From the NCBI GenBank assembly GCA_964372935.1, contig CAYJRF010000005.1, positions 1 to 54,443 on the forward strand: a DNA stretch of 54,443 nucleotides. The letters run 5' to 3'. Source of the stretch: an uncultured Candidatus Saccharibacteria bacterium (GTDB lineage: Bacteria > Patescibacteriota > UBA1384 > 2-12-FULL-50-11 > DASWYB01). The notes under the pieces were generated by a model. That model had not been told where the DNA came from. It searched no databases and saw only the letters and a list, made by a program, of their open reading frames with translations. Positions 6,647-52,411 of this stretch are shown here, one piece after another (the first letter of the stretch is position 1; the number at the start of each line of letters is the position of its first letter). The position numbers were made by a program, and so were the translations under genes.

Positions 6647-8512
6647 TTATACGGATTTTTTGATTCGGTAAGGTATCGCCAGAATTGATCCAAAGGTAAT
6701 CAAGATGCGCCATAGCCACGGCCGCCAGCCGGTCGCGCCCCGAGGTAGCGTAGCCGGCCCAGGGCCAGCGGCCTGCGCTTGCGGAATTGGTTCGAATCGC
6801 TGTTGGGTTGCTTCCGTGGTGGCGGGGGGCGAAGAGGCGGCTCGGCTGGCGACTGAACGGCTGGCGTCGTCAGGGCCTGGGCTGGTTGTTGCTCTCGGAG
6901 TAATCAGTTCAAAAGTGTCTCCGGCTCGGACGCTTAAATATGTTCCGCGGCTCGATTGTCGCCATTCCCCGCTGGCTCTGACCCGGTCGCCGCGCCGTAG
7001 AGCGGGCTTGGGGAGGCGGTATGACGAGTGGAGGACAATTCTAATTGGCTCGCCGGTGTCAGTGGAAATATCAATGGTTCTGCCGCTTGGCAAAACAACA
7101 GTGCCCGACAAGTCCGTTGCCCGATGGAGTGGCGCGGGAGACGGGCTGGAAGACTGGGAAAGCAATGCTGGAGGAGTGGTATCAGGCCAAAAGATACCGT
7201 CGCGAGTCCACGTTACGCCCTCCGGGGACGGTGGAATAGTGGCCGTATCGACGATATTTCCAGCCGAGTCGTATAAATCGTAGCTGCCGCCGGTGTTGAG
7301 TAAAAAATTACTGGCGCGAAACTCATGGGTCTCGCCGGGGGAAATTGTGCCGGTTAAATCGTAACTTATGGGACGATCCCGACGGCGCAATTGCCAGCTA
7401 TCGAGAATCGCCGGCACGTCATGATTGTTTTTGAGAGTGATGACTTCACTTTTCGTATCAACGCCAACCGGATTGGGTAAGAGCGATAGTATAACGACCT
7501 TGTTATACGTTTGGATATTAAGTATACGAGTGGCGATGTTAGCCTGATCGTCCAAACGTAAGTCAATACGGTATGTTCCGGACCGCTTAAATGACGGACG
7601 GAATGTCTGATCAGTCGACTCGGCAGGCTGGTTATCGACTGACCAATGATAACTGCCGCGATAATTTACGTCTGTCGCCGCTTTAAGCGTTAAGGGTTGT
7701 CCAGCGTAACCGCTATCCGGCCCGATGATTTGAGGTATTGCCGGTAACCCCGACCTAAAGTTGAGTGTGGCGAGGTGAACACCGTTGCCGATCTGGGTAA
7801 ATACCTCGCTATAGTCGGGCTCGGCGCGGCCAAAACGATAATAAGCCACATTGACAGTCTGTTCGGCGGTGCGGGTATTGGCCTGGCCGTTAAAAATCGG
7901 CACAATATGTTTAAGCGTGTTATCGTTGACAATGAAATATCCCTCTTGGTTTAATTGCCCTAGCTCATTATATGAGCGCATACTAAGGTCGTATAACGGA
8001 ACATTCGCTCCCGGTTGATATGATTGTAAAATACGACGATTTGTGGTTGATCCGACTTGCCTTCTCAACAGGTACAAAAATTTTTTCTGCCCTCCCGAAG
8101 ATACGCGGCCGATAATATGGCCGACGACTTGGCCGTTCGGACTGACGGAAATTATTGGCATATTGTTCCACTCATCGTGTTGGGCGAGCCACTTGTCACC
8201 ATTCCAGGTCTCTCCTTGGCAATTAAGGTTAGTGACATTCGTTTCATTGTCGAGGGGCAAATCGATGTCAGAGAAACATATTTTGACGCGAATATCTTGC
8301 GATATGTTTGGCGGACTTCCAAACGTAGTATCCAAGGGAATTAGGAACGGTTCATTGAGGCGAAGTGCCAGGAGAGTTCGGGCTTCAATCGCGGCGTGAG
8401 TTGGCATAGGGGCGGCGACGGCCAACAGCAAGCCACCAAGATAGCCCGCGGTGGCGATCGAGGGCCGCAATCTATGAATCGGGATCGTCAATAATGATGT
8501 CCAAGCCATCAC
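6647..8512 (-). CDS. Tail-anchored surface protein with PKD-like, lamin-tail (LTD) and OB-fold-like domains
   Basis: Signal peptide ...GGLLLAVAAPMPTHA. PKD-like GPDSGYAGQPLTLKA...YHWSV...GTYRIDL. LTD-like LLPNPVGVDTKSEVITLKNN...LDSWQL. OB-like LSGTVVLPSG...GDRVRASGEW. C-terminal TM helix WLWRILITFGSILAIPY. Confidence 0.6.
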   Translation of the reverse strand: MMAWTSLLTIPIHRLRPSIATAGYLGGLLLAVAAPMPTHAAIEARTLLALRLNEPFLIPLDTTFGSPPNISQDIRVKICFSDIDLPLDNETNVTNLNCQGETWNGDKWLAQHDEWNNMPIISVSPNGQVVGHIIGRVSSGGQKKFLYLLRRQVGSTTNRRILQSYQPGANVPLYDLSMRSYNELGQLNQEGYFIVNDNTLKHIVPIFNGQANTRTAEQTVNVAYYRFGRAEPDYSEVFTQIGNGVHLATLNFRSGLPAIPQIIGPDSGYAGQPLTLKAATDVNYRGSYHWSVDNQPAESTDQTFRPSFKRSGTYRIDLRLDDQANIATRILNIQTYNKVVILSLLPNPVGVDTKSEVITLKNNHDVPAILDSWQLRRRDRPISYDLTGTISPGETHEFRASNFLLNTGGSYDLYDSAGNIVDTATIPPSPEGVTWTRDGIFWPDTTPPALLSQSSSPSPAPLHRATDLSGTVVLPSGRTIDISTDTGEPIRIVLHSSYRLPKPALRRGDRVRASGEWRQSSRGTYLSVRAGDTFELITPRATTSPGPDDASRSVASRAASSPPATTEATQQRFEPIPQAQAAGPGPATLPRGATGWRPWLWRILITFGSILAIPYRIKKSV

Positions 8513-10615: not shown

Positions 10616-11779
10616 TTACGGGACGATAAATCGCGCTCGGCCGTAGTCGGCATAACTGACGTTGCGCCGTTCACTGTAGCCGAATGGCGGATTCCAATTG
10701 TATTCCGAAACATTAATCGTGCCGTCGTCGTTGACACCCTCGACGATCGCCGCGTGGCCATACGGCATTGCCGGTGCCCGATCCCACGACACAATCGCTC
10801 CGGACTGGGGTTTATCCACCACTTGATAGCCTTGGTCACGGGCTAAGGCCGGCCAATTCCACGCGCTTCCCTTGCCCGGGCGGGTATTTTCAAATGAGCG
10901 GCCGTAAACCACATTCCACTTCCAAGCGACATAGGACGTGCATTGACGGGTAAGAAAAAGCCAGGAATCAGCGCTATTAATCGCGGAGTAAGGGTAGCCG
11001 GAGGATCCGGTTAAATAAATTTCTTGATTTTGCTGGGCTAACTTTTGACGGAGGGCGTAGATCTCTTTCGAAATATCGTCGCGCTCCGAGGAAAGTTTTT
11101 TGACTAATTCCCGATACTTCGCTTCGTCGGCCTTTGATTGTTGAAGGAGACCGCTCTGGCGATGCTGTTTTGTCTGGAGGCTGGCGTTGCGGGCCTCCTG
11201 CTCGCCTTTGAGTTTAGCCAAAACGACGCGTTGAGCTTCCAAGCTGGTGCGCTTGGACTCGAGATCGGCTTTAACTCGCGACATCTCTTCGATGGTGGAA
11301 ATGATCCTCTCCTGAAGCGATTGGAGATATTCGCTGCGATCGGCGTAGCGCGAAATATCTTGCCCGTCGGACGCGACCTCGACTGACGACAGATTTGTCA
11401 GCTCATAGAGCGATGCCAGGGAGTCGTTAAGATCTTGATGAACACGGTTTAATTCGGCTGATTTGGTGGCAATGTCTTGATTTGTTGCCTTGATGGACGT
11501 CTCCTTGTCGTTGATTCGTCCCTCGTAATCGCGGATGCTATTTTTAACCGAGGCAATCTGATTTTCCAGGCCGGTAATTTCTTGGGTGTACGAGGCCGAA
11601 GTGTTGGCGGCCTTTTTTTGGAGATCATAATAGCGGTTCAACGAGTCTTCGGCTTGGCTTAATTGATCCTGGAGATCGCGCAGCGAGGCGGCCGAGACAG
11701 TCATTGGCACAACCAAAACTAGTGTCGCCGCGACAATCGCCGTTAGATCGCGAAGGGATAGGTGTCGTTTGCCTCCCAG
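10616..11779 (-). CDS. PcsB-like peptidoglycan hydrolase: coiled-coil N-domain plus C-terminal CHAP domain
   Basis: CHAP Cys (QCTSYVAWKW) and His (GHAAIVEGV). The long coiled coil resembles PcsB. The 5' end is extended to an in-frame CTG at 11779, which restores a complete signal peptide (see finding). The track start is TTG at 11716. Confidence 0.8.
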   Translation of the reverse strand: MGGKRHLSLRDLTAIVAATLVLVVPMTVSAASLRDLQDQLSQAEDSLNRYYDLQKKAANTSASYTQEITGLENQIASVKNSIRDYEGRINDKETSIKATNQDIATKSAELNRVHQDLNDSLASLYELTNLSSVEVASDGQDISRYADRSEYLQSLQERIISTIEEMSRVKADLESKRTSLEAQRVVLAKLKGEQEARNASLQTKQHRQSGLLQQSKADEAKYRELVKKLSSERDDISKEIYALRQKLAQQNQEIYLTGSSGYPYSAINSADSWLFLTRQCTSYVAWKWNVVYGRSFENTRPGKGSAWNWPALARDQGYQVVDKPQSGAIVSWDRAPAMPYGHAAIVEGVNDDGTINVSEYNWNPPFGYSERRNVSYADYGRARFIVP

Positions 11780-11861
11780 ACTGCCTCCTTTGTCACTAGA
11801 CTATCGTAATTGGCTGGCCTGTCAAATTCCAAAGGGCTTCTAACCGGTGTGAGGGGCGTGG

Positions 11862-12788
11862 CTAACGCTTGAGGTGATGACGAACCGAAAACCAGCTACA
11901 GATGACAGCCAGAGCAATGGCGAACAAAATTAGACTACCGCCAACTTGCGAAATATTAGCTTGGAACACAGTCATTAACTCTCGAGCGATCAGGGTATCT
12001 GGCGTCGCGATCACCGTGCTGCTTTCCGGGAGCCCGTTGCGGATGTAAAGATAAAGAGCGGGAAGTGTCAGCAGGCCAGCCAGGAGGCCGTAAAGGGCGC
12101 CTTCGACAATAAAAGGGCCTCGAATAAACGAATCGGTCGCGCCGACCAGTTTCATGACGGTGATTTCATCTTGGCGAAAATGGATGATGATACGAATGGT
12201 GTTATAAACAAATATGATGGCGATGATGATGAAAATCGCGCTGACTATCAGGCCGTCTCGGATGGCCTTTTGAGAGCGGGTAATTAAACTCTGAATAATC
12301 GGCCGACTGTCGCCGTAGGATAGCTTGCGGACATTACCGCCAGTGGCAAAATCGGTGGCCTGAATCTTCGTATGAACGGCGTCGAATTGGGTTGGGTCGT
12401 GGAGCTTTATTTTTACCGTTCGGGGCAGGGGGTTATTTTCGGGGTTGATTTGGTTTTTAATCCTGTCGTCCACGGGCAATGTGTTCCACGCCGCAATTAC
12501 CTGGTCTTTATTCAAATAAACCACATCTTTTACCTCCGGTAACTGACGGAGGTCGGCAACGAATTTTGCCACCTGATCTTCGCTCGGTGTGTCGTTGATA
12601 TAGACTGCCATGTCGAGCTTGTTTTGAATTGAACGGGTAGCTAGCCGAGTGACGTAGGCCTCCAGAGTGAAAGTGCTGACGATAAAGAGAGTCATCGCCA
12701 GGACGAATGTGGCGGCGATCGATAACCAGCCGTTTCGGACATAGTTAAGGACGCCAAACCGCAAAACGCGCTCAAGAGTGTGAGTCAT
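11862..12788 (-). CDS. ftsX: Cell-division ABC transporter permease-like protein FtsX
   Basis: 4-TM FtsX topology with a large first extracellular loop. The ATG at 12788 forms an ATGA overlap with the ftsE stop. Confidence 0.9.
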   Translation of the reverse strand: MTHTLERVLRFGVLNYVRNGWLSIAATFVLAMTLFIVSTFTLEAYVTRLATRSIQNKLDMAVYINDTPSEDQVAKFVADLRQLPEVKDVVYLNKDQVIAAWNTLPVDDRIKNQINPENNPLPRTVKIKLHDPTQFDAVHTKIQATDFATGGNVRKLSYGDSRPIIQSLITRSQKAIRDGLIVSAIFIIIAIIFVYNTIRIIIHFRQDEITVMKLVGATDSFIRGPFIVEGALYGLLAGLLTLPALYLYIRNGLPESSTVIATPDTLIARELMTVFQANISQVGGSLILFAIALAVICSWFSVRHHLKR

Positions 12789-13480
12789 GGTGTCGTTTTT
12801 TCCCGAGTGGCGTAGCCAGCTTGGGCCTCGTCGCGCACAACCCGACCAGCCTTTAGTTCGATGACTCGACGCTGCAAGCGATCGACGACACTTTTGTTGT
12901 GGGTGGCTAAAAGTATCGTCGTACCCAATTGGTTGATGCGATACAGCAAGTCGACTATTTCCCAAGTGTTGGTGGGGTCAAGATTGCCAGTCGGTTCGTC
13001 GGCAATAAGAATCCGCGGCGAATGAATTAGGGCGCGGGCAATGGCTACTCGCTGTTGCTCGCCGCCGGAAAGTTCGTGAGGATAGCTGTTGGCTAGGCCA
13101 TCAAGGTTGACCAGCTCAAGAATTTTCGGAACACGGCGCTTGATATCGGCGCCGAGAACACCGCAGACTTCCAAAGCGTAGGCAATATTTTCCGCCACCA
13201 TTTTTTGAGGTAAGAGCCGAAAATCCTGGAAGATAATGCCAATTTTGCGGCGGTAATGGGGTAATTCGCCCCGCGACAGTTCGGAGATGTCGCGGCCGGC
13301 AACGTAAATCCGTCCTCGAGTTGGCGTTTCTTCTCGGGTGAGAAGCTTGATGAGCGTTGACTTTCCTTCGCCGGATTGTCCCACGAGCGAGACAAATTCG
13401 CCGCTCTGGATGGAGAGCGTAACATCTTCCAGCACTTGGGTCTGGCCGTAGATTTTCGCGACGTTCTGGATTTCAATCAT
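12785..13480 (-). CDS. ftsE: Cell-division ATP-binding protein FtsE
   Basis: Walker A GQSGEGKST, signature LSGGEQQR, Walker B ILIADEPT. Confidence 0.95.
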   Translation of the reverse strand: MIEIQNVAKIYGQTQVLEDVTLSIQSGEFVSLVGQSGEGKSTLIKLLTREETPTRGRIYVAGRDISELSRGELPHYRRKIGIIFQDFRLLPQKMVAENIAYALEVCGVLGADIKRRVPKILELVNLDGLANSYPHELSGGEQQRVAIARALIHSPRILIADEPTGNLDPTNTWEIVDLLYRINQLGTTILLATHNKSVVDRLQRRVIELKAGRVVRDEAQAGYATREKTTP

Positions 13481-15567: not shown

Positions 15568-16017
15568 CTATTGCGAGATCGTGATAACTTTACCAAGCTC
15601 GGCTGACGGAGCGTTGCCTTTAACACGGTTACCGCCCCCGGTGGTGTCGATGCAGATGGTGTAATCGCCACTCGTTGGCTGGGGATCCGCGGGAATGCTC
15701 GAGAGATAGGTCGGCACCATCAGTTGCGTCAGGGTTGACGCGCCACCACTGCCAAACGTTGAACCACTAATTACTTCTGGGGTTGCAGTGCAAACGTCGA
15801 CACCCAGACCAGTGATAGAGCCGTTATTATCGGCGGCGTACTGATTGGCCGCGCTCACCACGGCGCGGACGTCGCTATTGCGCTGGGTGTTACGGGCTTG
15901 GGAGAACTGACGAGCGGGGTTAACCGCCACGATAACGATTGCCGCCAAAATGGCGATGATTCCGATGACAACGATAAGTTCAATTAAGGTAAAACCTTGA
16001 TAAGTCTGTTGTTTCAT
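15568..16017 (-). CDS. pilA: Major type IV pilin (PilA-like)
   Basis: Class III signal peptide MKQQTYQG|FTLIELIVVIGIIAILAAIV with Glu at +5. SD AAGGAGAGG upstream. Confidence 0.85.
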   Translation of the reverse strand: MKQQTYQGFTLIELIVVIGIIAILAAIVIVAVNPARQFSQARNTQRNSDVRAVVSAANQYAADNNGSITGLGVDVCTATPEVISGSTFGSGGASTLTQLMVPTYLSSIPADPQPTSGDYTICIDTTGGGNRVKGNAPSAELGKVITISQ

Positions 16018-16159: not shown

Positions 16160-18403
16160 TTACCTCTGGCTGAAAGCGGGCGATTTGTCGATAGCGGCGC
16201 CAAAATCCGACTCGGCAGAAAATGCTCCGCTGGTAATCTCGGCGGTCTGAAGCAACGGTTTAGCTTGAATGGTTACGACCTGCTTTCCCAGATCAATAAT
16301 ACCGCGCGCGCCAACAACCGCCAACTCGGCGGTATAATCGCCTTGGCGGAGAGGCACTATCGCCACCCCTTGGGTATTGGTAATTTTCCGTTGGACTATC
16401 AGGCCGTAGTGATTGCGAATCGAGATCAAGACATAGCCAATCGGTTGGTGATTGGCGCTGCGAACCGTGATCATCAAATTGACCTCGCGCCGGCGACGAA
16501 TTTCTTCTATCAGGCCAAATATAAAGTAGCCGCTGATCAGTCCATGCATCGGGCTGGGGGCGGTCAGAAACGCCAGTGCGGCGCCCACCCCGGCAGCCAC
16601 CAGAAATATCCGTCGCAGGCTGGCCAGGTGGAACAAGAATGACTCCAACTGCTGTAATTTAAGGTGGCTAAGTTCGAGCGGATCCATCGCTAAATTAAGC
16701 TGGCTGACGTTTTTGGCGCTTTCAAAAGTAACATTCTCGCCTCGATATGCGTTGGGCATGATATGCGAGGGAAAACTAAAAGCGCCATGCCCGGCTGTCA
16801 GGAAGAACGACCCCGCGCCAACCGGAAAAGTGTAAAAGCCGTTTTCGTCCGTTGACGTGCGGGCGATTTCTCGTTTTGACGCGGCATCGGAGAGAATCAC
16901 CGTCGCGCGGCGGATCGGACGGTTCGTGGTGGCGGCGATCACCTTACCCCAAGCTCGGCCAATTTTCTGGTGATGGGTTAAGCCGAAAAACCAGTGGCGA
17001 CTGTTGCGCAAAGCCATGACTATTCGGAAACCGCGCTGAACAGCTCCTTCGCCCAGCGATATGGCAAATAGCCCAAGGAGGAAAAACAGAAGGTTGTCAA
17101 CCGGCGAGACAGTATAATTATTGGTCAGCCAACGTTTGATCATGATGACCGCGGCGGTGAAGTTGCCCTGCGGGGTTGCTGGCGAGTCGAGTTTTTGACT
17201 GAGCAAGTCCTTATAAAATGCTCTCGTGGCCGCGTCGCCCTGATTGCGGGCTGTGCCGGCGTATGCGGCCGTAAGGGTGGTAAAACGGTGTTCGCACTCT
17301 TTGATCGCGTCGCCGGCGAGAGTAAAATAATATGTCGTATCTGGGGTTAGCTCGGAAAGTTTGTAACGGTGATTGGCGGTGTTTTGGGATTCGGTCAGGG
17401 TAATTTTGGCGTCGGCGTAGTTGTTGGCGATCCCGTCGCGTCCGGCACGGGCGGCGTCGTAAAGGTAAATTCCTAGGCGCGTGGGGATGACGGAATTGAC
17501 AGTAACGACAGCTTGAGTGTCCGAGCGTATAACCGCCAAATTACGGAGCTTTCCTTGACACGGTTTAATGTCGTCGCGCTTGGCGTAGTCAAGGCCTTCG
17601 GTATTGTCAAAACCAGTGCCGGATAAGGCGGGTGGGTTGGTGGCGGCGTTATTGTCTGGCGCTACCGTTGTGGGGGCAGTCTTGTTGGCCACGTTGGTCG
17701 TGGTCGGCGACGTTGCCACAGGGGTTATAGTTTGACTGGCGACTGGTCGGGGGGTGGGCAAGCTATAGCGGATAGTTAATTTGGGCGGCGCCGGCCCGTC
17801 GCCTGACGACACGTGGGCGTCGTCACCGGAAAATAGTCCGGTTTTATAGTCGCCGTCGCCAAAGGCGCGGAGGGCGATGCCGTGATTAGGGTAAGTTCCA
17901 GCGACCCATCCCCGCACCGCCTCGGTAACGTCGATTGACGGCGGAAAAACGTTGTTGGCTACCTCTAAGTTGGCGATGCTTTCTTCGGAATAGCTCGGTC
18001 GCGTGTTCCAGGTGGTGGTTTTATCCCATGGCGAGGTAACGCGGCGCAGGCGAATGTCGCCGTAGCCATAAATGGCCGAACCGGAGGGGGTTAAGATTAA
18101 GGTGGCATCGCCAATGATGGCGTTGTTTGGCACTTGACTAACGTCGAACTGAATAAAACTCTCCTGGGCGTCGGCCGGGGCTGTGGCCCAGTCCATGCCG
18201 CCGTCGTAAAGCATGTCGAGCACAGGAGCGGCGTCAAACTGTTTGTCCGATTCGGTCAACTTTACCGTGGTGTCGAAGCTGGGAGTCAGGCTGACTTCAC
18301 TGGCGAATGCCAATCCGGGGGCCACGGCCAGCGCCGCCAGCCAGATCGCCAGACTCGAATAGACCACCACTCGGTGTCGCCAATGATACCTGACTAAAGT
18401 CAT
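16160..18403 (-). CDS. Large pilus-operon membrane protein: DNRLRE/CBM96-like domain, Thr/Pro linker, FN3-like domain, TM segments, two CarboxypepD_reg-like domains
   Basis: Signal peptide ...APGLAFA|SE. The TTTWNTRPSYS motif is typical of DNRLRE domains (recall). FN3-like ...YKLSELTPDTTYYFTL. CarboxypepD_reg-like ATVILSD...TDENGFYTFPVGAGSFFL and a second copy near the C-terminus. About 3 internal TM helices. Confidence 0.65.
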   Translation of the reverse strand: MTLVRYHWRHRVVVYSSLAIWLAALAVAPGLAFASEVSLTPSFDTTVKLTESDKQFDAAPVLDMLYDGGMDWATAPADAQESFIQFDVSQVPNNAIIGDATLILTPSGSAIYGYGDIRLRRVTSPWDKTTTWNTRPSYSEESIANLEVANNVFPPSIDVTEAVRGWVAGTYPNHGIALRAFGDGDYKTGLFSGDDAHVSSGDGPAPPKLTIRYSLPTPRPVASQTITPVATSPTTTNVANKTAPTTVAPDNNAATNPPALSGTGFDNTEGLDYAKRDDIKPCQGKLRNLAVIRSDTQAVVTVNSVIPTRLGIYLYDAARAGRDGIANNYADAKITLTESQNTANHRYKLSELTPDTTYYFTLAGDAIKECEHRFTTLTAAYAGTARNQGDAATRAFYKDLLSQKLDSPATPQGNFTAAVIMIKRWLTNNYTVSPVDNLLFFLLGLFAISLGEGAVQRGFRIVMALRNSRHWFFGLTHHQKIGRAWGKVIAATTNRPIRRATVILSDAASKREIARTSTDENGFYTFPVGAGSFFLTAGHGAFSFPSHIMPNAYRGENVTFESAKNVSQLNLAMDPLELSHLKLQQLESFLFHLASLRRIFLVAAGVGAALAFLTAPSPMHGLISGYFIFGLIEEIRRRREVNLMITVRSANHQPIGYVLISIRNHYGLIVQRKITNTQGVAIVPLRQGDYTAELAVVGARGIIDLGKQVVTIQAKPLLQTAEITSGAFSAESDFGAAIDKSPAFSQR

Positions 18404-18404
18404 C

Positions 18405-18803
18405 CTAAAAGCTCGCGACCTCGTTATACGACACCTGCTGGAGAGTCGCCGACTGGACGACCATCGCCAAATTTGTCCTTAGACCGTTTACCGAGGACCA
18501 AGCGTGGATCGTTTTGTTATTACCGGCGGTGGTAATGGCGTCAATAGTGCAAGCGGTTGCTTGATTGCCAATGCCAATCGTGAGGGTTTCATTCCCGAGA
18601 TAAACATTATTGAGGGAAAGGTTGAGGAGGGCCTGATCCATACAACCTTGAGCGGCAAACCGGCTTTGTTGTTTGTTGGTTTCGTCGAGAGCGCCAAGTC
18701 TGGCGGTAAACGAACTTAGAGCGATTGAGGTGCTGACGGTAATGAGAACGAAAGTCAGAATAATTACCGTGGTGATGGCCATAAAGCCGGAAGGGTGTTT
18801 CAT
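18405..18803 (-). CDS. PilX/GspK-like minor pilin lacking Glu+5
   Basis: MKHPSG|FMAITTVIILTFVLITV has a pilin-like hydrophobic N-terminus with Thr at +5. ATGA overlap with the upstream gene. Confidence 0.5.
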   Translation of the reverse strand: MKHPSGFMAITTVIILTFVLITVSTSIALSSFTARLGALDETNKQQSRFAAQGCMDQALLNLSLNNVYLGNETLTIGIGNQATACTIDAITTAGNNKTIHAWSSVNGLRTNLAMVVQSATLQQVSYNEVASF

Positions 18804-19318
18804 AGGAAAAAATAAGTTTGGTCGAACTGGCTGATCTGATAGCGGCCGGTGAGTGTCATTTGGACGCGTGCCGCCGCTTGGCCATTAATTGTTAGGCGGG
18901 TAAACAAGAGACCGCTGATTTGAGCGTGGCTGTTGCTGATCGGGTAGACGACATCGGCGGAGGTGAACAAACCGTCGCCGTTGCTGTCGCGCCAGAGTCG
19001 AAGACTACCGTTGGAGTCAAGTTGATAACGCGTCCCGTTGGCCTTTTGAAACGTTAGGACGGCGGCGGCGCCGCTGGCGGGGGTAACCGAGCCCTGATTT
19101 ACTTGCTCTAACAACCAGTTAAGCTTTTGGGAGATAAAGCGCCAGTTTTCACTCACCGCGGCTCGTTCGCGGTCGCGTTGACTGGCGGTAATCATGCCGT
19201 TGGCCGACGTCATAAATACTCCCACGATGGCCGAGACCAGCGCCGAATAGAGCAAGACTTCCACCAGCGACAAGCCAGCCGGCGACCTAAAACGTCGGGC
19301 GGATAATTCTAAGGGCAT
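18800..19318 (-). CDS. Minor pilin / pseudopilin
   Basis: ...RFRSPAG|LSLVEVLLYSALVSAIVGV with Glu at +5. Start placed at the internal ATG at 19318; the track ORF extends to 19399 inside the upstream gene. Confidence 0.65.
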   Translation of the reverse strand: MPLELSARRFRSPAGLSLVEVLLYSALVSAIVGVFMTSANGMITASQRDRERAAVSENWRFISQKLNWLLEQVNQGSVTPASGAAAVLTFQKANGTRYQLDSNGSLRLWRDSNGDGLFTSADVVYPISNSHAQISGLLFTRLTINGQAAARVQMTLTGRYQISQFDQTYFFL

Positions 19319-20714
19319 TGTTGCTCCTGACGGAAATATAGATGGTGTTGTTTTCATAGGTAATTCCGGTGGCGGCCTGGGGGAAATTGAGGGTGCCATA
19401 GTCGATGTTGATACTGGCCGGATTAGCGATGTCCAGGACCTGAAATTCGGCGTTCGGCTCTTCCGTAACCATAAACATCAAGCGGTTAACGGCGACCATG
19501 TCGTTAATGCCGGCGGCCATGCCGGCGGAACCCAACAGGGTGATCGCCGCCGGATTGAAGGCGTTGAGGATAAAAAACTCTGGGGCGGTGTCCGACAGCT
19601 TGCGTCCAAGATAAACGTTAAATTCGTCTTTGACAAAGACGCTGTAGCCGTCGGTGGTATCGGCGGCGTTGTAGCTCCCCAATTTGGTCATACTGGCCGG
19701 ACTACTGACGTCAATGACCATCAACTCCTCGTTATCCACCGAGGTAGCAAGGTAGGCGCGCTGATTGAATATCGTCATGTTGTTAACGTTGCCGTTAATC
19801 TCCAAACTGCCTAAAACCGTCGGATTAGCCGGATCGGTCACATTCAGGGCGTAAAACTCTGGCGCCCCGCTTAAGACTTCCATGCCGACGTACAGCGTGT
19901 TGCCCGACACCTCCAGACTTAAAGCGCGACAGGCGCATAAGTCTAGCCGCCGGACAACGACGGGTAAAGCCGGGTTGCTGACGTTGACGATAATCAGCTC
20001 GTCGGTTGAGCCGCCGGCGAGCGAGCCGTAAAGATAATTGCCGCTCACGGCGATCATGGAAATATTGGAGACGCCTAGGTCAACACTACTGTTATTAATC
20101 GGATTGTTGGGGTTAGTAACGTCAAAAATCGCCAGATCAGGCTTCGATTGATTAGCCGCGCTGGCCGACAAATAGACGCGGTTATTGAGACCCTTTACGT
20201 CGGTGCCGGCGGCGCCGATGGCGATGTCGGCTGTGCCGGCGCTTAAGGGCACTTTCCAATTGCCTTCGATATAGTTGCTGGCCTGGGTAACGCTCCAGTT
20301 GGTTAAAATTATGTTCAGGCTCACGGCCAGCGGCCGATTGTGCAAACCAGTCCAAGTAATGGCGCTGGTAACGTTTTTGCTGTTGGCCGAACGGGGGGTG
20401 ATAGTCAAACGGCGGGTAAACGTTCCTTTGGTGTCGCTCGATCCGGAAAATTGCCAATTATTGGCGACTTGGGATAAACCGAAAGTGCCGTTTTGGAGAT
20501 TGCTCCACCCCTGATTTCGAATTAGGCGGACGGCCTCGACGCCCTCCTTGGCGTAGGCCGAGGCGGCCAGAGCGTTTTGGGTGTCGGTCACCAGGGCGCG
20601 GCCGCCAGTAATGAGGGTGATTAAACTTGATGAGGTCATTAAAAACACGCTCGAGGCGATGACTAACTCTAGAACAGTCTGGCCGAGGTGGAAGCGCTTC
20701 ACGACAGCTACCAA
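19287..20714 (-). CDS. Pilin-like N-terminus fused to an LVIVD-repeat beta-propeller (candidate pilus tip adhesin)
   Basis: KRFHLG|QTVLELVIASSVFLM has Glu at +5. A likely GTG start at 20702 gives the leader MKRFHLG. At least 6 repeats of the type ELIIVNVSNPALP, LMVIDVSSPAS, FQVLDIANPAS, LAIFDVTNPNNP. Confidence 0.7.
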   Translation of the reverse strand: MVAVVKRFHLGQTVLELVIASSVFLMTSSSLITLITGGRALVTDTQNALAASAYAKEGVEAVRLIRNQGWSNLQNGTFGLSQVANNWQFSGSSDTKGTFTRRLTITPRSANSKNVTSAITWTGLHNRPLAVSLNIILTNWSVTQASNYIEGNWKVPLSAGTADIAIGAAGTDVKGLNNRVYLSASAANQSKPDLAIFDVTNPNNPINNSSVDLGVSNISMIAVSGNYLYGSLAGGSTDELIIVNVSNPALPVVVRRLDLCACRALSLEVSGNTLYVGMEVLSGAPEFYALNVTDPANPTVLGSLEINGNVNNMTIFNQRAYLATSVDNEELMVIDVSSPASMTKLGSYNAADTTDGYSVFVKDEFNVYLGRKLSDTAPEFFILNAFNPAAITLLGSAGMAAGINDMVAVNRLMFMVTEEPNAEFQVLDIANPASINIDYGTLNFPQAATGITYENNTIYISVRSNNALRIIRPTF

Positions 20715-21145
20715 TCAACCGTTCCTTCGGCGTTAGTCGTCACCGTCAAAATGCGATTGCCGGTTTGAAGGGTAATGACCGCGTTGCTGGTTTGTCCCGT
20801 CAGGGCGGTAAAGTTAAGATCCGCCGGTCCGGTCATGGTAACGGCGTTGGGTCGAGGGTACGTCAGACTTTGTTGAGTCGCGCCGGCGGCGTTCGGGCCC
20901 TGGTAGACGATAATCTGGGCGCTGGTAATACTCACCCCGTGGTTTGACTGATTAAGGTTGGTAACGGCCCGATCACGGGCGTAGGTCAAAAATGATACCA
21001 GGTTATCACGGGTGTCTCGCAGGTTGTAAGACGCCAGAAGGTCGAAGGTGGCTGGCGCCACCAAGCCGATCATGGTCGTCGCGATGGCGATCGCCATTAT
21101 TAACTCAATTAATGTATAGGCGGCAAGGGAACGGGCGCCGATCAT
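20708..21145 (-). CDS. GspH/FimT-like minor pilin
   Basis: MIGARSLAA|YTLIELIMAIAIATTMIGL with Glu at +5 and Ala at -1. LVSFLTYARDRAV resembles the GspH AR motif. The ATG at 21145 lies 1 nt after the pilC stop. Confidence 0.65.
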   Translation of the reverse strand: MIGARSLAAYTLIELIMAIAIATTMIGLVAPATFDLLASYNLRDTRDNLVSFLTYARDRAVTNLNQSNHGVSITSAQIIVYQGPNAAGATQQSLTYPRPNAVTMTGPADLNFTALTGQTSNAVITLQTGNRILTVTTNAEGTVDW

Positions 21146-21146
21146 G

Positions 21147-22214
21147 TCATTTTCCAATCGTTTGGCCCAGGCTGTAGATTGGCAGAATGATGGAGATGGA
21201 TATAAAGCCAACCAAACCACCCATGAATACCATCATCAACGGTTCGAGCAGGGAGATCATGTTTTTGGCAGTCTCGTCAACTTCTTGTTCGTAGTAATCG
21301 CTTAAGTAATTGAGGGTGGTTTCTAGGGTGCCGGCGGTTTCGCTAACTTCCACCATCTGGGAGAACATTTTTGGAAACAACTTCGGATAGCCCTGGAGGT
21401 ACTTACCCAACGGCGCGCCGACTCTGACTTGATCGGCCGCCCCGCGGGTAATTTGTCGGTAGACAAGGTTGGGCATGACTTCACTGGTGATGCCAAGGGC
21501 CTCGACGATTTTTGTCCCGCTTTTTAGAAGGACCGCGAAGGTGCGGGCAAACATGGCCACTTGGACGCTGCGGAAAAGGGGTCCCAAAATCGGTATGTGG
21601 AGGAAAAATCGGTGAATAAAGAATCGAAATGACCCAATATTGAGGGTGAGGCGGAAGGCGATGACAAAACTGGTGATAGACAGTATTACCGCGAGCCAAT
21701 AATGAGTAAAGAAGGCGTGAGTTTTAATCAGCACTCGGGTGGAAAGGGGAAGGATAACGTTCAGGGTACTGAAGACCGGCAAAATTTTGGGGAAGATCAA
21801 AAACATCAAGACGCTCGTGAGTCCCAAGGTCGTAACGAGAATTATTATCGGGTAAAGCATGGCATTGAGAATTTTGCTCGTGAGCATCTGGCGTTTTTTG
21901 AGTTCAACGGCCAAAAGTTCGAGGTTTTCCGACAGTGTCCCGCTGCTCTCGCCGACGCGGATGATATTAATAAACAGGCTGCCCAAGGCGCCCTCGAATT
22001 TCTTTAAGCCGGTGGAGAGGAACTGGCCATTTTCCAGGTCGTCAATAACCGATTGGAGCACTTTGTGCATACTGCGAGACTGGGTTTGTTGCTCGATCAT
22101 ATACAAGCTGTCGAGGAGGGGCATGCCCGAGCGCACCATCAAAGAAATATTACGGGCAAACAAAATTTGCTCCTTCACCGGTACTCGAAGGAAAAAGCTC
22201 CCAGATTTACTCAT
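21147..22214 (-). CDS. pilC: Type IV pilus platform protein PilC (GspF family)
   Basis: Two T2SSF repeats, 3-4 TM helices, and an 8-nt overlap with pilB. Confidence 0.9.
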   Translation of the reverse strand: MSKSGSFFLRVPVKEQILFARNISLMVRSGMPLLDSLYMIEQQTQSRSMHKVLQSVIDDLENGQFLSTGLKKFEGALGSLFINIIRVGESSGTLSENLELLAVELKKRQMLTSKILNAMLYPIIILVTTLGLTSVLMFLIFPKILPVFSTLNVILPLSTRVLIKTHAFFTHYWLAVILSITSFVIAFRLTLNIGSFRFFIHRFFLHIPILGPLFRSVQVAMFARTFAVLLKSGTKIVEALGITSEVMPNLVYRQITRGAADQVRVGAPLGKYLQGYPKLFPKMFSQMVEVSETAGTLETTLNYLSDYYEQEVDETAKNMISLLEPLMMVFMGGLVGFISISIILPIYSLGQTIGK

Positions 22215-23580
22215 GGACGACTCGCAAAACTTCTTCGATGGTCGTCTGACCGTTAATCGCCCGCCGAAACCCGTCTTGGAGCATGGTGGTCATGCCCGCG
22301 CTTTCGGCATAGTGGGAAATTTCGGCGGCGCTGGCCCGTTTCATTATTAGCTCTCTGATTTGATCGTCAACCACCAGGACTTCGTAAATGCCGACTCGAC
22401 CCAAGTAGCCACTCCCGCCGCAGACACCGCAGCCCCGGCCGACAAAAAATTGCCGCGTATTGCCAAGCGTTTGGGGCGGGATGGATTCGGCCAAGCTTTG
22501 ATATTCAACGTCGGTAATAACTTTAGGGGCGCGACAGTAAGAGCAAATTTTCCGCACCAGCCGCTGACCGACGGCGACGTTAACGGTTGAAGCGATCAAG
22601 AACGGTTCGATCTTGAATTCGCTCAATCGAGCCAGGGTTGTCGGGGCGTCGTTGGTGTGGACGGTCGACAAAAGCAAGTGGCCGGTCAAGGCCGCGTTAA
22701 CGGCAATTTCGGCGGTTTCTTCGTCGCGTATTTCTCCCACCATAATTATATTGGGATCTTGGCGTAAAAATGACCGCAGCCCATTGGCGAATGTTAGGCC
22801 GGACTGGGGGTTAACCTGAATTTGGTTGATGCCTTCCATGGAGTATTCAATCGGGTCCTCGATTGTAATAATCGACACTTCCGGTTTATTGAGCGTGTGA
22901 AGAATGGTGTAAAGCATGGTAGTCTTGCCCGAGCCGGTCGGGCCGGTGGCGAGAATCATGCCATAAGGACGAGTGATGGCGTGCTTGACTTTTTGAAGAT
23001 CGAGCGGAAACATGTCCATGTGTTCCAAGGTGAAAGACTCCGATGGCGACTGGAGAAGACGCATTTCAACGTTTTCACCGTAATATGTTGGGACGATTGA
23101 GACGCGAATATCAACCGGTCCAAGGTCGCGCAGGACCATTTTTAATCGCCCGTCTTGAGGGATCTGATGTTCGTCGGTTCGCAGACCGCACAGGATTTTG
23201 ATGCGCGAAACAAACACCGACTGAATGATCCGGGGAAGCGACAGAGCGTCGTGAAGAATGCCGTCAATCCGAAATCGTACCCGAACATAAGTTGGGGTGG
23301 GGTCAACGTGAATATCCGATGATTGCAAGAGGCTGGCATAGGCGATGAGCTGATCGACTAAGCGAACAATTGAAAATTCGCTCGCGTGGCGCGACAGTTC
23401 CTGTTCAATCGAGGCGCGAAGGGTCGCGGCGGTTTGGGCCGCTTGGGCGCGTTCAAGTATCTCCTGCTGTTCGCGCAGTTGCGTTGCCGTTACAGCGGCA
23501 TTGGGACCGACCACGGGCGAAGCAACATTCGCGCCGACGCCAGCCGCGGCCGAATCGTTCGTTGGATTGGCCGCGCCCAT
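22207..23580 (-). CDS. pilB: Type IV pilus assembly ATPase PilB (GspE family)
   Basis: Walker A GPTGSGKTT, Asp and His boxes, tetracysteine CSYC...CGVCGGSG. Low-complexity N-terminus with no T2SSE_N domain. The 5' end may extend (see finding). Confidence 0.93.
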   Translation of the reverse strand: MGAANPTNDSAAAGVGANVASPVVGPNAAVTATQLREQQEILERAQAAQTAATLRASIEQELSRHASEFSIVRLVDQLIAYASLLQSSDIHVDPTPTYVRVRFRIDGILHDALSLPRIIQSVFVSRIKILCGLRTDEHQIPQDGRLKMVLRDLGPVDIRVSIVPTYYGENVEMRLLQSPSESFTLEHMDMFPLDLQKVKHAITRPYGMILATGPTGSGKTTMLYTILHTLNKPEVSIITIEDPIEYSMEGINQIQVNPQSGLTFANGLRSFLRQDPNIIMVGEIRDEETAEIAVNAALTGHLLLSTVHTNDAPTTLARLSEFKIEPFLIASTVNVAVGQRLVRKICSYCRAPKVITDVEYQSLAESIPPQTLGNTRQFFVGRGCGVCGGSGYLGRVGIYEVLVVDDQIRELIMKRASAAEISHYAESAGMTTMLQDGFRRAINGQTTIEEVLRVVHE

Positions 23581-34899: not shown

Positions 34900-35065
34900 A
34901 TGGTTAAAAACAATAAATCGTGCAACAAGCTTAGCTGGGACTAAATAAAAGAAGCTTTATAATCTACATATTACAACGTGATGTACTAGTGTTATTGCCA
35001 TATTCAGATCCGTTCAAAAACACTCCGGGTGGTTAGCCAAGCTTTCAGCCGTGCGGGCGGTGTGG

Positions 35066-35094
35066 TCGCCAGACCGAGCGACTTTCGGTATAAT
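35066..35094 (+). promoter_or_regulatory. Possible promoter giving a leaderless def-fmt mRNA
   Basis: TCGCCA, a 17-nt spacer, TATAAT (35089-35094), then 7 nt to the ATG at 35102. No SD. Confidence 0.3.
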
Positions 35095-35101
35095 CAAGTT
35101 T

Positions 35102-42147: not shown

Positions 42148-42783
42148 ATGAAGAGTGGCCGATTTATCATCTTTGAGGGTCTCGACGGGTCAGGTCAAAC
42201 AACCCAAGTCGATTTGCTGGCTGTGCGGCTGAAAGGCGACGGGCATAAAGTATTAGTCACTAAAGAACCGACCAATAATCTCGTCGGCGGGTTAATCCGC
42301 GGCGCCTTGACAGGCGAATGGCGCCCATCCAATCAGATAATTCAACTCCTTTACGCCGCCGATCGCGGTCATCATTTGGAACGAGAGATTCTGCCGGCGC
42401 TGGCTAAAGGGTTTATTGTCATATCGGATCGCTATTTTTTTTCTTCAATCGCTTTCGGTTCACTCAATTGCGATACTGACTGGCTAAAAGCCCTGAACCG
42501 AAACTATCCTCAACCGGACCACGCTTTTTATGTTCGCGTGTCGCCCCAGACCGCTCTGAAACGGATTCGCGCCGGTCGCTTCGAGTTTGAGCTGTTCGAA
42601 AAAGAGCAACAATTGACTTTAGTGGCGGCGGCTTACGAAGAGCTCATTCGCGACAACGCTAATTTCTATGCCGTGGACGGCGAACAGCCTATCGAGGCAG
42701 TTCACGAAGCGATCTATCGCTTGTGTTGCGATCGCTTGATTCGCTATTGTCCGTTACCGACTGTCCAGGCCTCCTCGGCCTAA
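42148..42783 (+). CDS. tmk: Thymidylate kinase
   Basis: FIIFEGLDGSGQTTQ P-loop and a DRY-type motif (SDRYFFSS). Confidence 0.92.
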   Translation: MKSGRFIIFEGLDGSGQTTQVDLLAVRLKGDGHKVLVTKEPTNNLVGGLIRGALTGEWRPSNQIIQLLYAADRGHHLEREILPALAKGFIVISDRYFFSSIAFGSLNCDTDWLKALNRNYPQPDHAFYVRVSPQTALKRIRAGRFEFELFEKEQQLTLVAAAYEELIRDNANFYAVDGEQPIEAVHEAIYRLCCDRLIRYCPLPTVQASSA

Positions 42784-50713: not shown

Positions 50714-51073
50714 TCACGTCATCGGCACCTGAGCCAGCTCAACGAACGCCGGCAGAATTGCCTGCAGGATCAAGTAGGCCAACACCGCCACCAAAACAAT
50801 AAACAGCACTTGGGCCCAGTTATGGCGAATAACTTTGATGTCGCACGTGCCGTTGTAGTGCTTGAGAAAGTAGTAGATCGCTCCATCCATAAAGATGAAG
50901 GCCAGCGCCACAAGCCACCAATGGTACATCATCTGAACATTGGCCATGAACGCCGCCGCGACGCTTAGGCCCAAAAACCCCAATACCACGGCCGAGACAC
51001 AACACGACCAAGCGACCAAACCGGTCAACACGCCGATAGCCGCTCCGGACCTAATTTGTTTTGACGTCCCCAT
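50714..51073 (-). CDS. MerT-like 3-TM membrane protein with a vicinal Cys pair in TM1
   Basis: GVLTGLVAWSCCVSAVVLGFLGLS resembles MerT ...ILASACCLGPLVLIALG. A third Cys lies in a loop (GTCD). 23-nt overlap with the kinase gene's end. Confidence 0.4.
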   Translation of the reverse strand: MGTSKQIRSGAAIGVLTGLVAWSCCVSAVVLGFLGLSVAAAFMANVQMMYHWWLVALAFIFMDGAIYYFLKHYNGTCDIKVIRHNWAQVLFIVLVAVLAYLILQAILPAFVELAQVPMT

Positions 51074-52409: not shown

Positions 52410-52411
52410 GA

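What the first reader, a model, noticed from the sequence alone, without database searches (positions are those of the whole stretch)
19287..20714. Pilin N-terminus fused to an LVIVD beta-propeller: a built-in tip adhesin?
The protein starts with a short leader plus G|QTVLELVIASSVFLM, with the Glu+5 hallmark of PilD substrates. A GTG at 20702 would give the typical 7-aa leader MKRFHLG. After a pilin-sized globular part come at least six LVIVD-type repeats (ELIIVNVSNPALP, FYALNVTDPANP, LMVIDVSSPAS, FFILNAFNPAA, FQVLDIANPAS, LAIFDVTNPNNP), which should form a beta-propeller. In Gram-negative T4P the propeller adhesin PilY1 is a separate protein docked on the minor pilins. Here a propeller of a different family is covalently attached to a minor pilin.
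Basis: partly seen in the sequence, partly recalled or inferred. Interest (0 to 1): 0.65.

Follow-up and report, generated by a model that had tools for sequence, protein, structure and literature searches.

The report
Pilus subunit carrying a propeller domain
This gene from an ultrasmall (Patescibacteria/CPR) bacterium encodes a minor subunit of a type IV pilus with a seven-bladed propeller domain fused to it, most likely a binding head at the pilus tip; this architecture is real and widespread but has already been catalogued.

Summary
ORF 19287-20714 (-) has a short basic leader ending in Gly, then QTVLE with Glu+5 and a hydrophobic stretch. Six LVIVD motifs follow at 44-49 aa spacing (0 of 20,000 shuffles reach six). 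Pfam LVIVD scores 43 bits against a 20.2 cutoff. AlphaFold2 (pLDDT 95, pTM 0.87) gives a 57-residue pilin helix, a small beta-sheet head, a short linker and a 28-strand, seven-bladed propeller.

The gene is the second of four tightly packed or overlapping minor-pilin genes after pilB-pilC, the GspI/ComGE/PilV position. That order recurs in eight loci in all (five with LVIVD). More than 100 homologue clusters, where named all Patescibacteria, keep Gly-1 and Glu+5.

The same pilin module also occurs bare (143 aa) or with other C-terminal modules (290 aa unknown, 1026 aa fn3-rich) in the same slot, so it is a swappable carrier.

The tip-adhesin role is inferred, not shown. It is supported by analogy with TM7x PilX2 (RCC1-propeller pilin, host-binding defect) and S. 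sanguinis PilB. About 30 pilin-LVIVD proteins are already listed in Raynaud et al. 2021.

Verdict: new member of a known kind, moderate interest.

The parts
19287..20714 (-). Gene for the modular minor pilin: 475 aa from TTG 20714, alternative start GTG 20702 giving 471 aa, stop codon at 19287-19289.
   Evidence: ORF list and sequence; SD-like GAAGGA 8 nt before the TTG; 132 homologues found.
20682..20714 (-). Class III (prepilin) leader peptide MVAVVKRFHLG, or MKRFHLG if GTG 20702 is the start. Predicted cleavage is after Gly.
   Evidence: Direct reading of the sequence; Gly-1 is 94% conserved in 78 homologues; the motif is found in 89 of 120 homologues.
20298..20681 (-). Pilin module: alpha1 helix (residues 8-64 of the 471-aa form, Glu+5 = E12) and a six-stranded beta-sheet head (72-134).
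   Evidence: AF2 models (pLDDT 95.4 and 92.9); N_methyl hit in 17 of 28 homologous modules. The Foldseek match to solved pilins is not significant.
20262..20297 (-). Short linker containing one small helix (residues 136-147). It is the least conserved segment.
   Evidence: AF2 secondary structure; entropy by region.
19290..20261 (-). Seven-bladed LVIVD beta-propeller (residues 148-471, 34 kDa, pI 4.3, no histidine).
   Evidence: Pfam LVIVD at 43.1 bits; 28 strands in AF2; Foldseek top hit 5hrm, a seven-bladed propeller, at E 3e-11; motif periodicity; His count.
20708..21145 (-). Slot-1 minor pilin, 145 aa from ATG 21145, ComGD/GspH-like. N-terminus MIGARSLAA|YTLIE, with Ala at -1.
   Evidence: NCBIfam ComGD E 7.6e-6 and GspH E 7.3e-5, both below the curated cutoffs; its orthologue in L001 hits ComGD at 1.6e-10; start site.
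18800..19318 (-). Slot-3 minor pilin, 172 aa from ATG 19318 (AGGAG SD). N-terminus MPLELSARRFRSPAG|LSLVE. It overlaps the 3' end of the propeller gene by 32 nt.
   Evidence: Sequence reading; its positional counterpart in L002 hits PpdC/ComGF/GspJ-type models at E 1.8e-6 to 3e-5.
18405..18803 (-). Slot-4 minor pilin, 132 aa. N-terminus MKHPSG|FMAIT has no Glu+5, as in GspK. It overlaps slot 3 by 4 nt.
   Evidence: Sequence; weak PilX_N hit at E 0.035.
16160..18403 (-). 747-aa protein with a predicted Sec signal peptide, a DNRLRE/CBM96 domain, CarboxypepD_reg domains and hydrophobic stretches read as likely membrane segments (not run through a predictor). It is encoded between the last minor pilin and the major pilin. 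Whether it belongs to the pilus system is uncertain.
   Evidence: Pfam and NCBIfam; a 726-aa counterpart lies at the same place in L004 but is absent in L001, L002 and L005.
15568..16017 (-). Putative major pilin, 149 aa, N-terminus MKQQTYQG|FTLIE, preceded by a strong SD.
   Evidence: N_methyl at 31.6 bits and TIGR02532 at 29.8 bits, both above their cutoffs; SD sequence.
21147..22214 (-). PilC/GspF platform protein.
   Evidence: Pfam T2SSF, E 1.4e-53.
22207..23580 (-). PilB/GspE assembly ATPase.
   Evidence: Pfam T2SSE, E 2.2e-120.

Best explanation
The gene encodes a modular minor type IV pilin of a Patescibacteria (CPR) bacterium.

Shown: it has a prepilin-type leader with Gly-1 and Glu+5, a predicted 57-residue alpha1 helix with a small beta-sheet head, and, after a 12-residue linker, a seven-bladed LVIVD beta-propeller. 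It is the second of four tightly packed or overlapping minor-pilin genes placed after pilB-pilC. By order and weak HMM hits, these correspond to H/ComGD, I/ComGE/PilV, J/ComGF and K. The same pilin module is found elsewhere bare or carrying other C-terminal modules in the same operon slot.

Inferred mechanism: a prepilin peptidase encoded elsewhere cleaves after Gly. The four minor pilins assemble on the PilC platform into the priming complex. PilB then polymerises the 149-aa major pilin beneath them, so the complex ends up at the pilus tip. The 34-kDa propeller, probably too bulky for the filament body (no coordinates or dimensions were computed), is displayed there as a ligand-binding head. 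It probably binds a surface glycan or protein of a host cell or substrate, and so does in one polypeptide what PilY1 plus the minor pilins do in diderm T4aP.
For: - Motif and repeats.
- LVIVD above the Pfam cutoff.
- AF2 pLDDT 95.4, pTM 0.87, with helix 8-64, sheet 72-134 and 28 propeller strands.
- Closest solved structure is a seven-bladed LVIVD-like propeller, 5hrm: Foldseek E 3e-11 and profile E 1.3e-5 through the repeats.
- Gly-1 and Glu+5 are at least 94% conserved in 78 homologues; N_methyl hit in 17 of 28 homologous pilin modules and 37 of 80 non-LVIVD carriers.
- The operon order T2SSE-T2SSF-pilin-LVIVD pilin-pilin-pilin recurs in the window, L001, L002, L004 and L005.
- Slot 1 is ComGD/GspH-like, slot 3 is ComGF/GspJ-like and slot 4 lacks Glu+5.
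- The carrier module occurs in 732 representative clusters at E<=1e-30. In the top 147, about 57 carry LVIVD and the rest are bare or carry other modules. These sit in the same slot in L006, L007 and L008.
- Precedents: deletion of TM7x PilX2, a minor pilin with a seven-bladed RCC1 propeller, halves host binding (PMC11623550). S. sanguinis PilB vWA is a bona fide adhesin, and modular pilins are argued to be tip-located (PMC8179133).
Against: - No experiment or expression data exist for this protein; only DNA metagenome runs hold it.
- The window protein itself misses the N_methyl HMM.
- The pilin head has no significant match to solved pilins. The best pilin match is EpsI 2ret_C, E 0.36.
- No prepilin peptidase, PilT or PilMNO gene lies in the 54-kb window.
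- The propeller is as conserved as the pilin module (entropy 2.24 vs 2.33). It is not hypervariable, as one might expect of a host-range determinant.
- No ligand is known for any LVIVD propeller.
- Tip location and docking geometry were not modelled.
Confidence: 0.6

Rival explanations
1. Assembly or anti-retraction role rather than adhesion. The propeller is a structural part of the priming complex, like the C-terminal propeller of PilY1, which is needed for pilus biogenesis. Its main job would be to start or stabilise the filament, with no specific external ligand.
For: The gene lies inside the core minor-pilin cluster, with overlapping reading frames. The propeller is as conserved as the pilin module, and its conserved residues are structural Tyr, Pro, Gly and Glu of the repeats. 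PilY1 and minor pilins are reported to form a priming complex (cited in PMC11623550).
Against: The same slot is filled elsewhere by a bare 143-aa pilin or by unrelated modules (290 aa, 1026 aa fn3-rich) in otherwise identical operons. The passenger is therefore dispensable for the conserved assembly role. TM7x lacking PilX2 still makes filaments.
Confidence: 0.15
2. The machinery is a Com-like DNA-uptake pilus or a T2SS-like pseudopilus. The propeller would then capture DNA or a secreted cargo rather than mediate adhesion.
For: The operon layout (ATPase, platform, then ComGD/E/F/G-like pilins) resembles comG, and the hits to ComGD, ComGE and ComGF models are the best named ones. No PilT gene is nearby. 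The modular minor pilin ComZ is discussed in connection with DNA in PMC8179133.
Against: The propeller is acidic (pI 4.3), which is unfavourable for DNA binding. TM7x T4P-2 pilin mutants kept normal competence. PilT may simply be encoded elsewhere in the genome.
Confidence: 0.1
3. The propeller is an enzyme displayed on the pilus. One possibility is a hydrolase related to the Sphingobium TCM1 phosphotriesterase, the closest solved structure. Another is a glycan-degrading activity acting on the host wall.
For: 5hrm is the top hit by both fold and profile. Raynaud et al. note modular pilins carrying predicted peptidase modules.
Against: The window propeller contains no histidine. Across 78 homologues the His count ranges from 0 to 12 (median 2), and no His, Cys or Asp column is conserved. 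The only columns at or above 80% conservation are repeat-framework residues. That 5hrm uses a His-ligated binuclear metal centre is recalled from memory; the ligand list was not retrieved.
Confidence: 0.04
4. The protein is not a pilin. It would be an uncleaved N-terminally anchored membrane protein that displays a propeller on the cell surface, and it merely neighbours pilus genes.
For: The window protein has no N_methyl HMM hit. The pilin head has no significant structural match to solved pilins. No peptidase gene is in the window.
Against: Gly-1 and Glu+5 are conserved in 94-97% of homologues. Many homologues have canonical G|FSLVE N-termini and pass N_methyl. The slot between other pilin genes is fixed in eight loci. 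The predicted 57-residue helix is far longer than a membrane anchor.
Confidence: 0.05

Closest known systems
Pilin-LVIVD modular pilins (IPR012902-IPR013211 architectures) in Dataset S1 of Raynaud et al. 2021 (PMC8179133)
   Same: The domain architecture is the same: an N-terminal prepilin motif followed by LVIVD repeats. About 30 proteins are listed (8+8+7+4+1+1+1), including a Candidatus Falkowbacteria protein. IPR013211 is the LVIVD entry.
   Different: They were only counted, and the motif was called 'of unknown function'. No structure, operon position or function was given. The window protein would have been missed by that survey, because its own N-terminus does not pass the N_methyl model.
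PilX2 of Nanosynbacter lyticus TM7x (Saccharibacteria), PMC11623550
   Same: It is a Patescibacteria minor pilin with a lollipop pilin part and a C-terminal seven-bladed beta-propeller. Its deletion roughly halves host binding without abolishing filaments, and it is proposed as the adhesin.
   Different: The PilX2 propeller has RCC1 repeats, not LVIVD; no RCC1 hit was found here at E<=1. PilX2 is not predicted to have a PilD signal peptide, whereas this family has conserved Gly-1 and Glu+5.
PilB (vWA) and PilC (lectin) modular pilins of Streptococcus sanguinis
   Same: A bulky functional module is grafted by a short linker onto a small pilin module. The pilin is proposed to be tip-located, and adhesion is demonstrated for PilB.
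   Different: The passenger folds differ (vWA, concanavalin-like lectin), the lineage is Firmicutes, and these have solved structures and binding data.
PilY1/PilC of diderm T4aP (Pseudomonas, Neisseria, Myxococcus)
   Same: A seven-bladed propeller is presented at the pilus tip together with the four core minor pilins, with roles in adhesion and priming (as summarised).
   Different: PilY1 is not a pilin and docks non-covalently. Its propeller family (IPR008707) is unrelated at the sequence level: there was no Pfam hit here and no PilY1 among the top 50 Foldseek matches.
GspI / ComGE / PilV core minor pilins
   Same: The gene is second in the minor-pilin order H-I-J-K, has Glu+5 and a small beta-sheet head. 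Weak supporting hits are ComGE in 4 of 28 modules, EpsI 2ret_C with probability 0.75, and two homologues named PilV by JGI.
   Different: No HMM or fold match is significant, and the classical members have no C-terminal passenger domain.
Sphingobium sp. TCM1 phosphotriesterase (PDB 5hrm)
   Same: It is the closest solved structure: a seven-bladed propeller built from LVIVD-like repeats.
   Different: It is a soluble metallo-enzyme. The window propeller has no histidine and no conserved catalytic-type residues. Foldseek sequence identity is only 14-15%.

Membership tests
Type IV pilins (class III signal peptide substrates) | Short, positively charged leader ending in Gly at -1 | tested here: met
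   MVAVVKRFHLG or MKRFHLG. Gly is 94% conserved in 78 homologues.
Type IV pilins (class III signal peptide substrates) | Glu at +5 followed by about 20 hydrophobic residues | tested here: met
   QTVLE followed by LVIASSVFLMTSSSLITLIT. Glu is 97% conserved.
Type IV pilins (class III signal peptide substrates) | Match to the N-terminal methylation motif HMM (PF07963 / TIGR02532) | tested here: inconclusive
   The window protein has no hit at E<=1. However, 17 of 28 homologous modules (E<=1, best 2e-6) and 37 of 80 related carriers (E<=0.001) do hit.
Type IV pilins (class III signal peptide substrates) | Lollipop fold: an alpha1 helix of about 50 residues packed against an antiparallel beta-sheet | tested here: inconclusive
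   AF2 predicts helix 8-64 and a six-stranded sheet at pLDDT above 90. Foldseek against the PDB gives no significant pilin match; the best is EpsI at E 0.36.
Type IV pilins (class III signal peptide substrates) | Encoded with type IV filament machinery (assembly ATPase, platform protein, other pilins) | tested here: met
   The order pilB-pilC-pilin-THIS-pilin-pilin-...-major pilin is seen in the window and in L001, L002, L004 and L005.
Type IV pilins (class III signal peptide substrates) | Cleavage and N-methylation by a prepilin peptidase, and incorporation into filaments | not testable with these tools
   This needs biochemistry. No Peptidase_A24 gene is in the 54-kb window.
LVIVD-repeat beta-propellers (PF08309) | HMM score above the Pfam gathering threshold | tested here: met
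   43.1 bits against a 20.2 cutoff. Nearly all of the 120 listed homologues carry PF08309.
LVIVD-repeat beta-propellers (PF08309) | Tandem repeats of about 45 aa forming a closed propeller | tested here: met
   Six full motifs at 44-49 aa spacing plus a C-terminal seventh. There are 28 strands, i.e. 7 blades of 4, at pLDDT about 97. The top Foldseek hits are all seven-bladed propellers.
Modular pilins sensu Raynaud et al. 2021 | [quoted passage not shown] | tested here: met
   Pilin module 8-135, linker 136-147, propeller 148-471.
PilY1/PilC tip adhesins | PilY1-type C-terminal propeller domain (IPR008707 / Pfam PilY1 family), and a non-pilin protein | tested here: not met
   No such Pfam hit at E<=1, no PilY1 structure in the top 50 Foldseek hits, and the protein has a prepilin N-terminus.
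Propeller phosphotriesterases (Sb-PTE, 5hrm) | Conserved metal-binding catalytic residues in the propeller core | tested here: not met
   There are zero His residues in the window propeller and no conserved His, Cys or Asp column in 78 homologues. The exact ligand list of 5hrm could not be retrieved.
GspI / ComGE / PilV minor pilins | Significant HMM or fold match to the family | tested here: inconclusive
   Only weak hits were found: ComGE at E about 0.006 in 4 of 28 modules and EpsI with probability 0.75 at E 0.36. The assignment rests on gene order.

The most novel reading that the evidence does not exclude
The second core minor pilin (GspI/ComGE/PilV position) of Patescibacteria type IV pili may be a general plug-in carrier. 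Its C-terminal passenger (LVIVD propeller, fn3 arrays, lectin-like or unknown modules, or none) would be exchanged between lineages and would set which host cell or surface the episymbiont's pilus tip recognises. On this reading the LVIVD propeller is the commonest such receptor-binding head, and its ligand would be the first function assigned to the LVIVD family.
Probability: 0.3. Interest if true: 0.6.

Novelty: new member of a known kind. Interest (0 to 1): 0.4.

Why it matters
Patescibacteria make up a large share of bacterial diversity. All cultivated members live attached to other microbes, and how they find and bind hosts is an open question. Reviews explicitly single out tip-located minor pilins as candidates.

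This family gives a concrete, abundant and confidently modelled candidate: a pilin with a built-in propeller head, in a fixed operon slot whose passenger domain varies between lineages. If the propeller binds a host ligand, two things follow. The uncharacterised LVIVD repeat family would gain a function, and passenger type could be used to predict host or substrate preference from metagenomes.

For the finding as written, the gain is modest. The architecture is already catalogued, and the concept has a characterised analogue in TM7x.

Tried and rejected
- **GTDB genome scans.** The scan with the single protein found nothing, and the 78-sequence alignment was too diverse to seed a scan. A 12-sequence alignment found only one locus, L003, a Patescibacteria MAG. 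The taxonomic range therefore rests on the few source names.
- **Cluster member look-up.** It returned no organism names.
- **Classifying the pilin module.** Foldseek of the pilin module alone, and the pilin-module profile against PDB sequences, gave nothing significant. Hits included EpsI at E 0.36, geopilin at E 0.019 and LT-IIB noise. The GspI-type assignment could not be confirmed by fold.
- **Phosphotriesterase-like enzyme.** Considered because 5hrm is the top hit, and rejected because the propeller has no histidine and no conserved catalytic-type column. A literature search for the 5hrm ligand list did not yield it.
- **Expression evidence.** Only DNA metagenome runs hold the gene.
- **Machinery genes.** A search for PilD, PilT and PilMNO among the 46 window ORFs scanned (nearly all of those of at least 120 aa that look like genes) found none.
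Full report
**1. What is at the coordinates**

The minus strand carries an ORF at 19287..20714. It is 475 aa from TTG 20714, or 471 aa from GTG 20702. The TTG has a GAAGGA sequence 8 nt upstream, and the GTG has no Shine-Dalgarno sequence. Database gene callers nevertheless used the GTG, giving the 471-aa form P0001. Either start gives a short basic leader ending in Gly (MVAVVKRFHLG or MKRFHLG). It is followed by QTVLELVIASSVFLMTSSSLITLITGG, with Glu at +5.

None of 20,000 shuffles of the protein reached six matches to the motif pattern (mean 0.076). A seventh, shortened motif (ALRIIRP) ends the protein. Pfam LVIVD scores 43.1 bits against a cutoff of 20.2, and Beta_propel PF09826 is just above its cutoff.

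**2. Structure**

AlphaFold2 was run with a 78-sequence family alignment and gave pLDDT 95.4 and pTM 0.87. The predicted elements are:
- a helix at residues 8-64, the length of a pilin alpha1;
- six strands at residues 72-134;
- a short helix at 136-142;
- 28 strands from 148 to 470, which I count as seven four-stranded blades.

Foldseek against the PDB returns only propellers. The best is the seven-bladed phosphotriesterase of Sphingobium sp. TCM1 (5hrm, E 3e-11). The family profile also finds 5hrm by sequence (E 1.3e-5), and the alignment runs through LVIVD-like repeats of that enzyme.

The window propeller has no histidine at all, and no His, Cys or Asp column is conserved in 78 homologues. 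The conserved positions are repeat-framework Tyr, Pro, Gly and Glu. I therefore reject an Sb-PTE-like metallo-enzyme.

The pilin module modelled alone is also confident (pLDDT 92.9). Its Foldseek and profile searches against solved structures are not significant, however. The only pilin in the Foldseek list is EpsI (2ret_C, probability 0.75, E 0.36). The pilin fold is thus predicted but not corroborated by a structural match.

**3. Is the N-terminus really a prepilin signal?**

The window protein does not hit the N_methyl HMM. The family evidence is nonetheless strong:
- Of the 120 best homologues, 89 have G|[QFS]xx[LIV]E followed by a hydrophobic stretch. Most exceptions are truncated gene calls or longer, Sec-signal LVIVD proteins from other bacteria.
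- In the 78-sequence alignment, Gly-1 is 94% conserved and Glu+5 is 97% conserved.
- Many members have the canonical G|FSLVE.
- 17 of 28 homologous pilin modules hit PF07963 at E<=1 (best 2e-6).
- Some homologues are named 'prepilin-type N-terminal cleavage/methylation domain-containing protein' or 'PilV' by their sources.

No prepilin peptidase gene is in the window, so processing cannot be addressed here.

**4. Genomic context**

The gene is part of a minus-strand operon, in this order:
- PilB ATPase (22207-23580);
- PilC platform (21147-22214);
- a 145-aa ComGD/GspH-like pilin (20708-21145, AA|YTLIE);
- the propeller pilin;
- a 172-aa pilin starting at ATG 19318 behind an AGGAG (G|LSLVE), overlapping the propeller gene by 32 nt;
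- a 132-aa pilin without Glu+5 (G|FMAIT, weak PilX_N hit), overlapping by 4 nt;
- a 747-aa DNRLRE/CBM96 plus CarboxypepD_reg protein with a predicted signal peptide and hydrophobic stretches;
- a canonical 149-aa major pilin (G|FTLIE).

The order T2SSE, T2SSF, pilin of about 150 aa, LVIVD pilin, protein of about 170 aa, protein of about 130-155 aa recurs in L001, L002, L004 and L005. Slot 1 hits ComGD/GspH models (E down to 1.6e-10) and slot 3 in L002 hits PpdC/ComGF/GspJ-type models. All of these are below the curated cutoffs.

Slot 4 lacks Glu+5, as GspK does. The four genes thus follow the H-I-J-K order of gsp, comG and fimU-pilVWX operons (established knowledge). That puts the propeller pilin at the I/ComGE/PilV position, which is an inference from order supported by weak ComGE and EpsI hits.

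The rest of the window is housekeeping: SecA, MurB, FtsEX, RuvB, tRNA synthetases and others. The named homologues are all Patescibacteria.

**5. The carrier is shared and the passenger varies**

A profile of the pilin module alone was searched against 1.84 billion representative proteins. It found 22,062 hits at E<=1e-3, 4,954 at E<=1e-10 and 732 at E<=1e-30. Among the 147 best:
- about 57 carry the LVIVD propeller (mostly 460-500 aa);
- the others are 135-175 aa bare pilins, a large 265-290 aa class, or 300-1026 aa proteins.

Pfam recognises fn3, Pur_ac_phosph_N, Laminin_G_3, DUF2341 and BclA_C/TNF in some of the non-LVIVD members and nothing in most. Some short entries may be fragments. Three variants were nevertheless checked on their contigs: 143 aa (L007), 290 aa (L006) and 1026 aa fn3-rich (L008). 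All are complete genes in the same slot of the same operon layout.

The second minor pilin is therefore a carrier onto which different modules have been grafted. LVIVD is the most frequent passenger among the best hits.

**6. Most likely mechanism**

The architecture and operon position are shown. The following steps are inferred:
- A prepilin peptidase cleaves after Gly.
- The four minor pilins form the priming complex on PilC.
- PilB-driven polymerisation of the major pilin lifts that complex to the tip.
- The acidic 34-kDa propeller (pI 4.3) is exposed there as a binding head.

Three observations favour a ligand-recognition role over a purely structural one. The passenger is swapped while the carrier is kept (section 5). 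In the Patescibacterium TM7x, PilX2 is a minor pilin with a seven-bladed RCC1 propeller, and it is needed for efficient host binding but not for filament formation (PMC11623550). S. sanguinis PilB shows that a module grafted on a pilin can be a bona fide adhesin (PMC8179133).

Against this, the propeller is not more variable than the pilin part, no LVIVD ligand is known, and nothing was measured. I put 0.6 on the tip-displayed binding head. The rivals are a priming/anti-retraction role (0.15), a Com-like or T2SS-like function (0.10), a non-pilin membrane anchor (0.05) and an enzyme (0.04).

**7. Comparison with what is known**

- It meets the definition of a modular pilin.
- Its exact architecture is already in Dataset S1 of Raynaud et al. 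2021. IPR012902 followed by one to thirteen IPR013211 entries accounts for about 30 proteins, and the text mentions a Falkowbacteria protein with 12 copies of this 'motif of unknown function'. IPR013211 is the LVIVD repeat.
- A full-text search for LVIVD together with pilin found no study of such a protein.
- It works like PilY1 plus minor pilins but is not a PilY1 family member.
- Its closest functional analogue is TM7x PilX2, from which it differs in propeller family and in having a canonical cleavage motif.

**8. Verdict**

This is a real feature, confidently modelled and correctly read by the first stage. The fusion is not new as an architecture, and the tip-adhesin idea has a published analogue in the same phylum. 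What this analysis adds is the fixed slot in a conserved minor-pilin operon, the seven-blade model, the exclusion of the enzyme reading, and the evidence that the carrier takes different passengers.

Novelty: new member of a known kind. Interest: 0.4.

Noticed in passing
window 16160-18403 (-): A 747-aa protein is encoded between the last minor pilin and the major pilin. It has a predicted Sec signal peptide, a DNRLRE/CBM96 domain, two CarboxypepD_reg-like domains and hydrophobic stretches that may be membrane segments (read by eye). A 726-aa counterpart sits at the same place in the close relative L004, but not in L001, L002 or L005. It may be a clade-specific accessory of the pilus.
   Followed up: partly
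window 18405-18803 (-) and 20708-21145 (-): The fourth minor pilin lacks Glu+5 (G|FMAIT), as GspK-type tip pilins do. The first minor pilin appears to have Ala rather than Gly at -1 (SLAA|YTLIE).
   Followed up: partly
window 19287-19318: The slot-3 pilin gene starts at ATG 19318 behind an AGGAG. It overlaps the last 32 nt of the propeller gene in another frame. The longer 199-aa ORF from ATG 19399 is probably not the real gene.
   Followed up: yes
window, whole 54 kb: No prepilin peptidase (Peptidase_A24), PilT or PilM/N/O gene was found among the 46 ORFs scanned. PilB here (457 aa) lacks the MshEN N-terminal domain present in the PilB of L002, L006 and L008.
   Followed up: partly
L002, L006, L008 (relatives): In several related loci the pilus operon is flanked by response regulators and PAS/HisKA sensor kinases. 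In the window, a kinase/regulator pair lies about 30 kb away at 51051-52804.
   Followed up: no
window 35051-36511 (+): A single 486-aa ORF combines peptide deformylase (residues 20-169) and methionyl-tRNA formyltransferase N-domain (185-358). In L001 these are separate adjacent genes.
   Followed up: no
window 42780-44411 (-): This ThyX (Thy1) protein is unusually long at 543 aa, with two Thy1 stretches, the best at residues 315-500. It may have an N-terminal extension or a duplication.
   Followed up: no
window 10616-13480 (-): An FtsE (ABC_tran), FtsX and CHAP-domain protein cluster, an FtsEX-hydrolase arrangement. Nearby at 6647-8512 is a 621-aa protein whose Lamin Tail Domain hit (26.9 bits) is below the Pfam cutoff of 34.3.
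   Followed up: no
window 19287-20714 (-), residues 256 and 258 of the 471-aa form: The only two cysteines of the propeller form a C-A-C motif in blade 3. The mature protein has 11 N-X-S/T sequons and 35% Gly/Ala/Ser/Thr, similar to the values reported for TM7x tip pilins.
   Followed up: no
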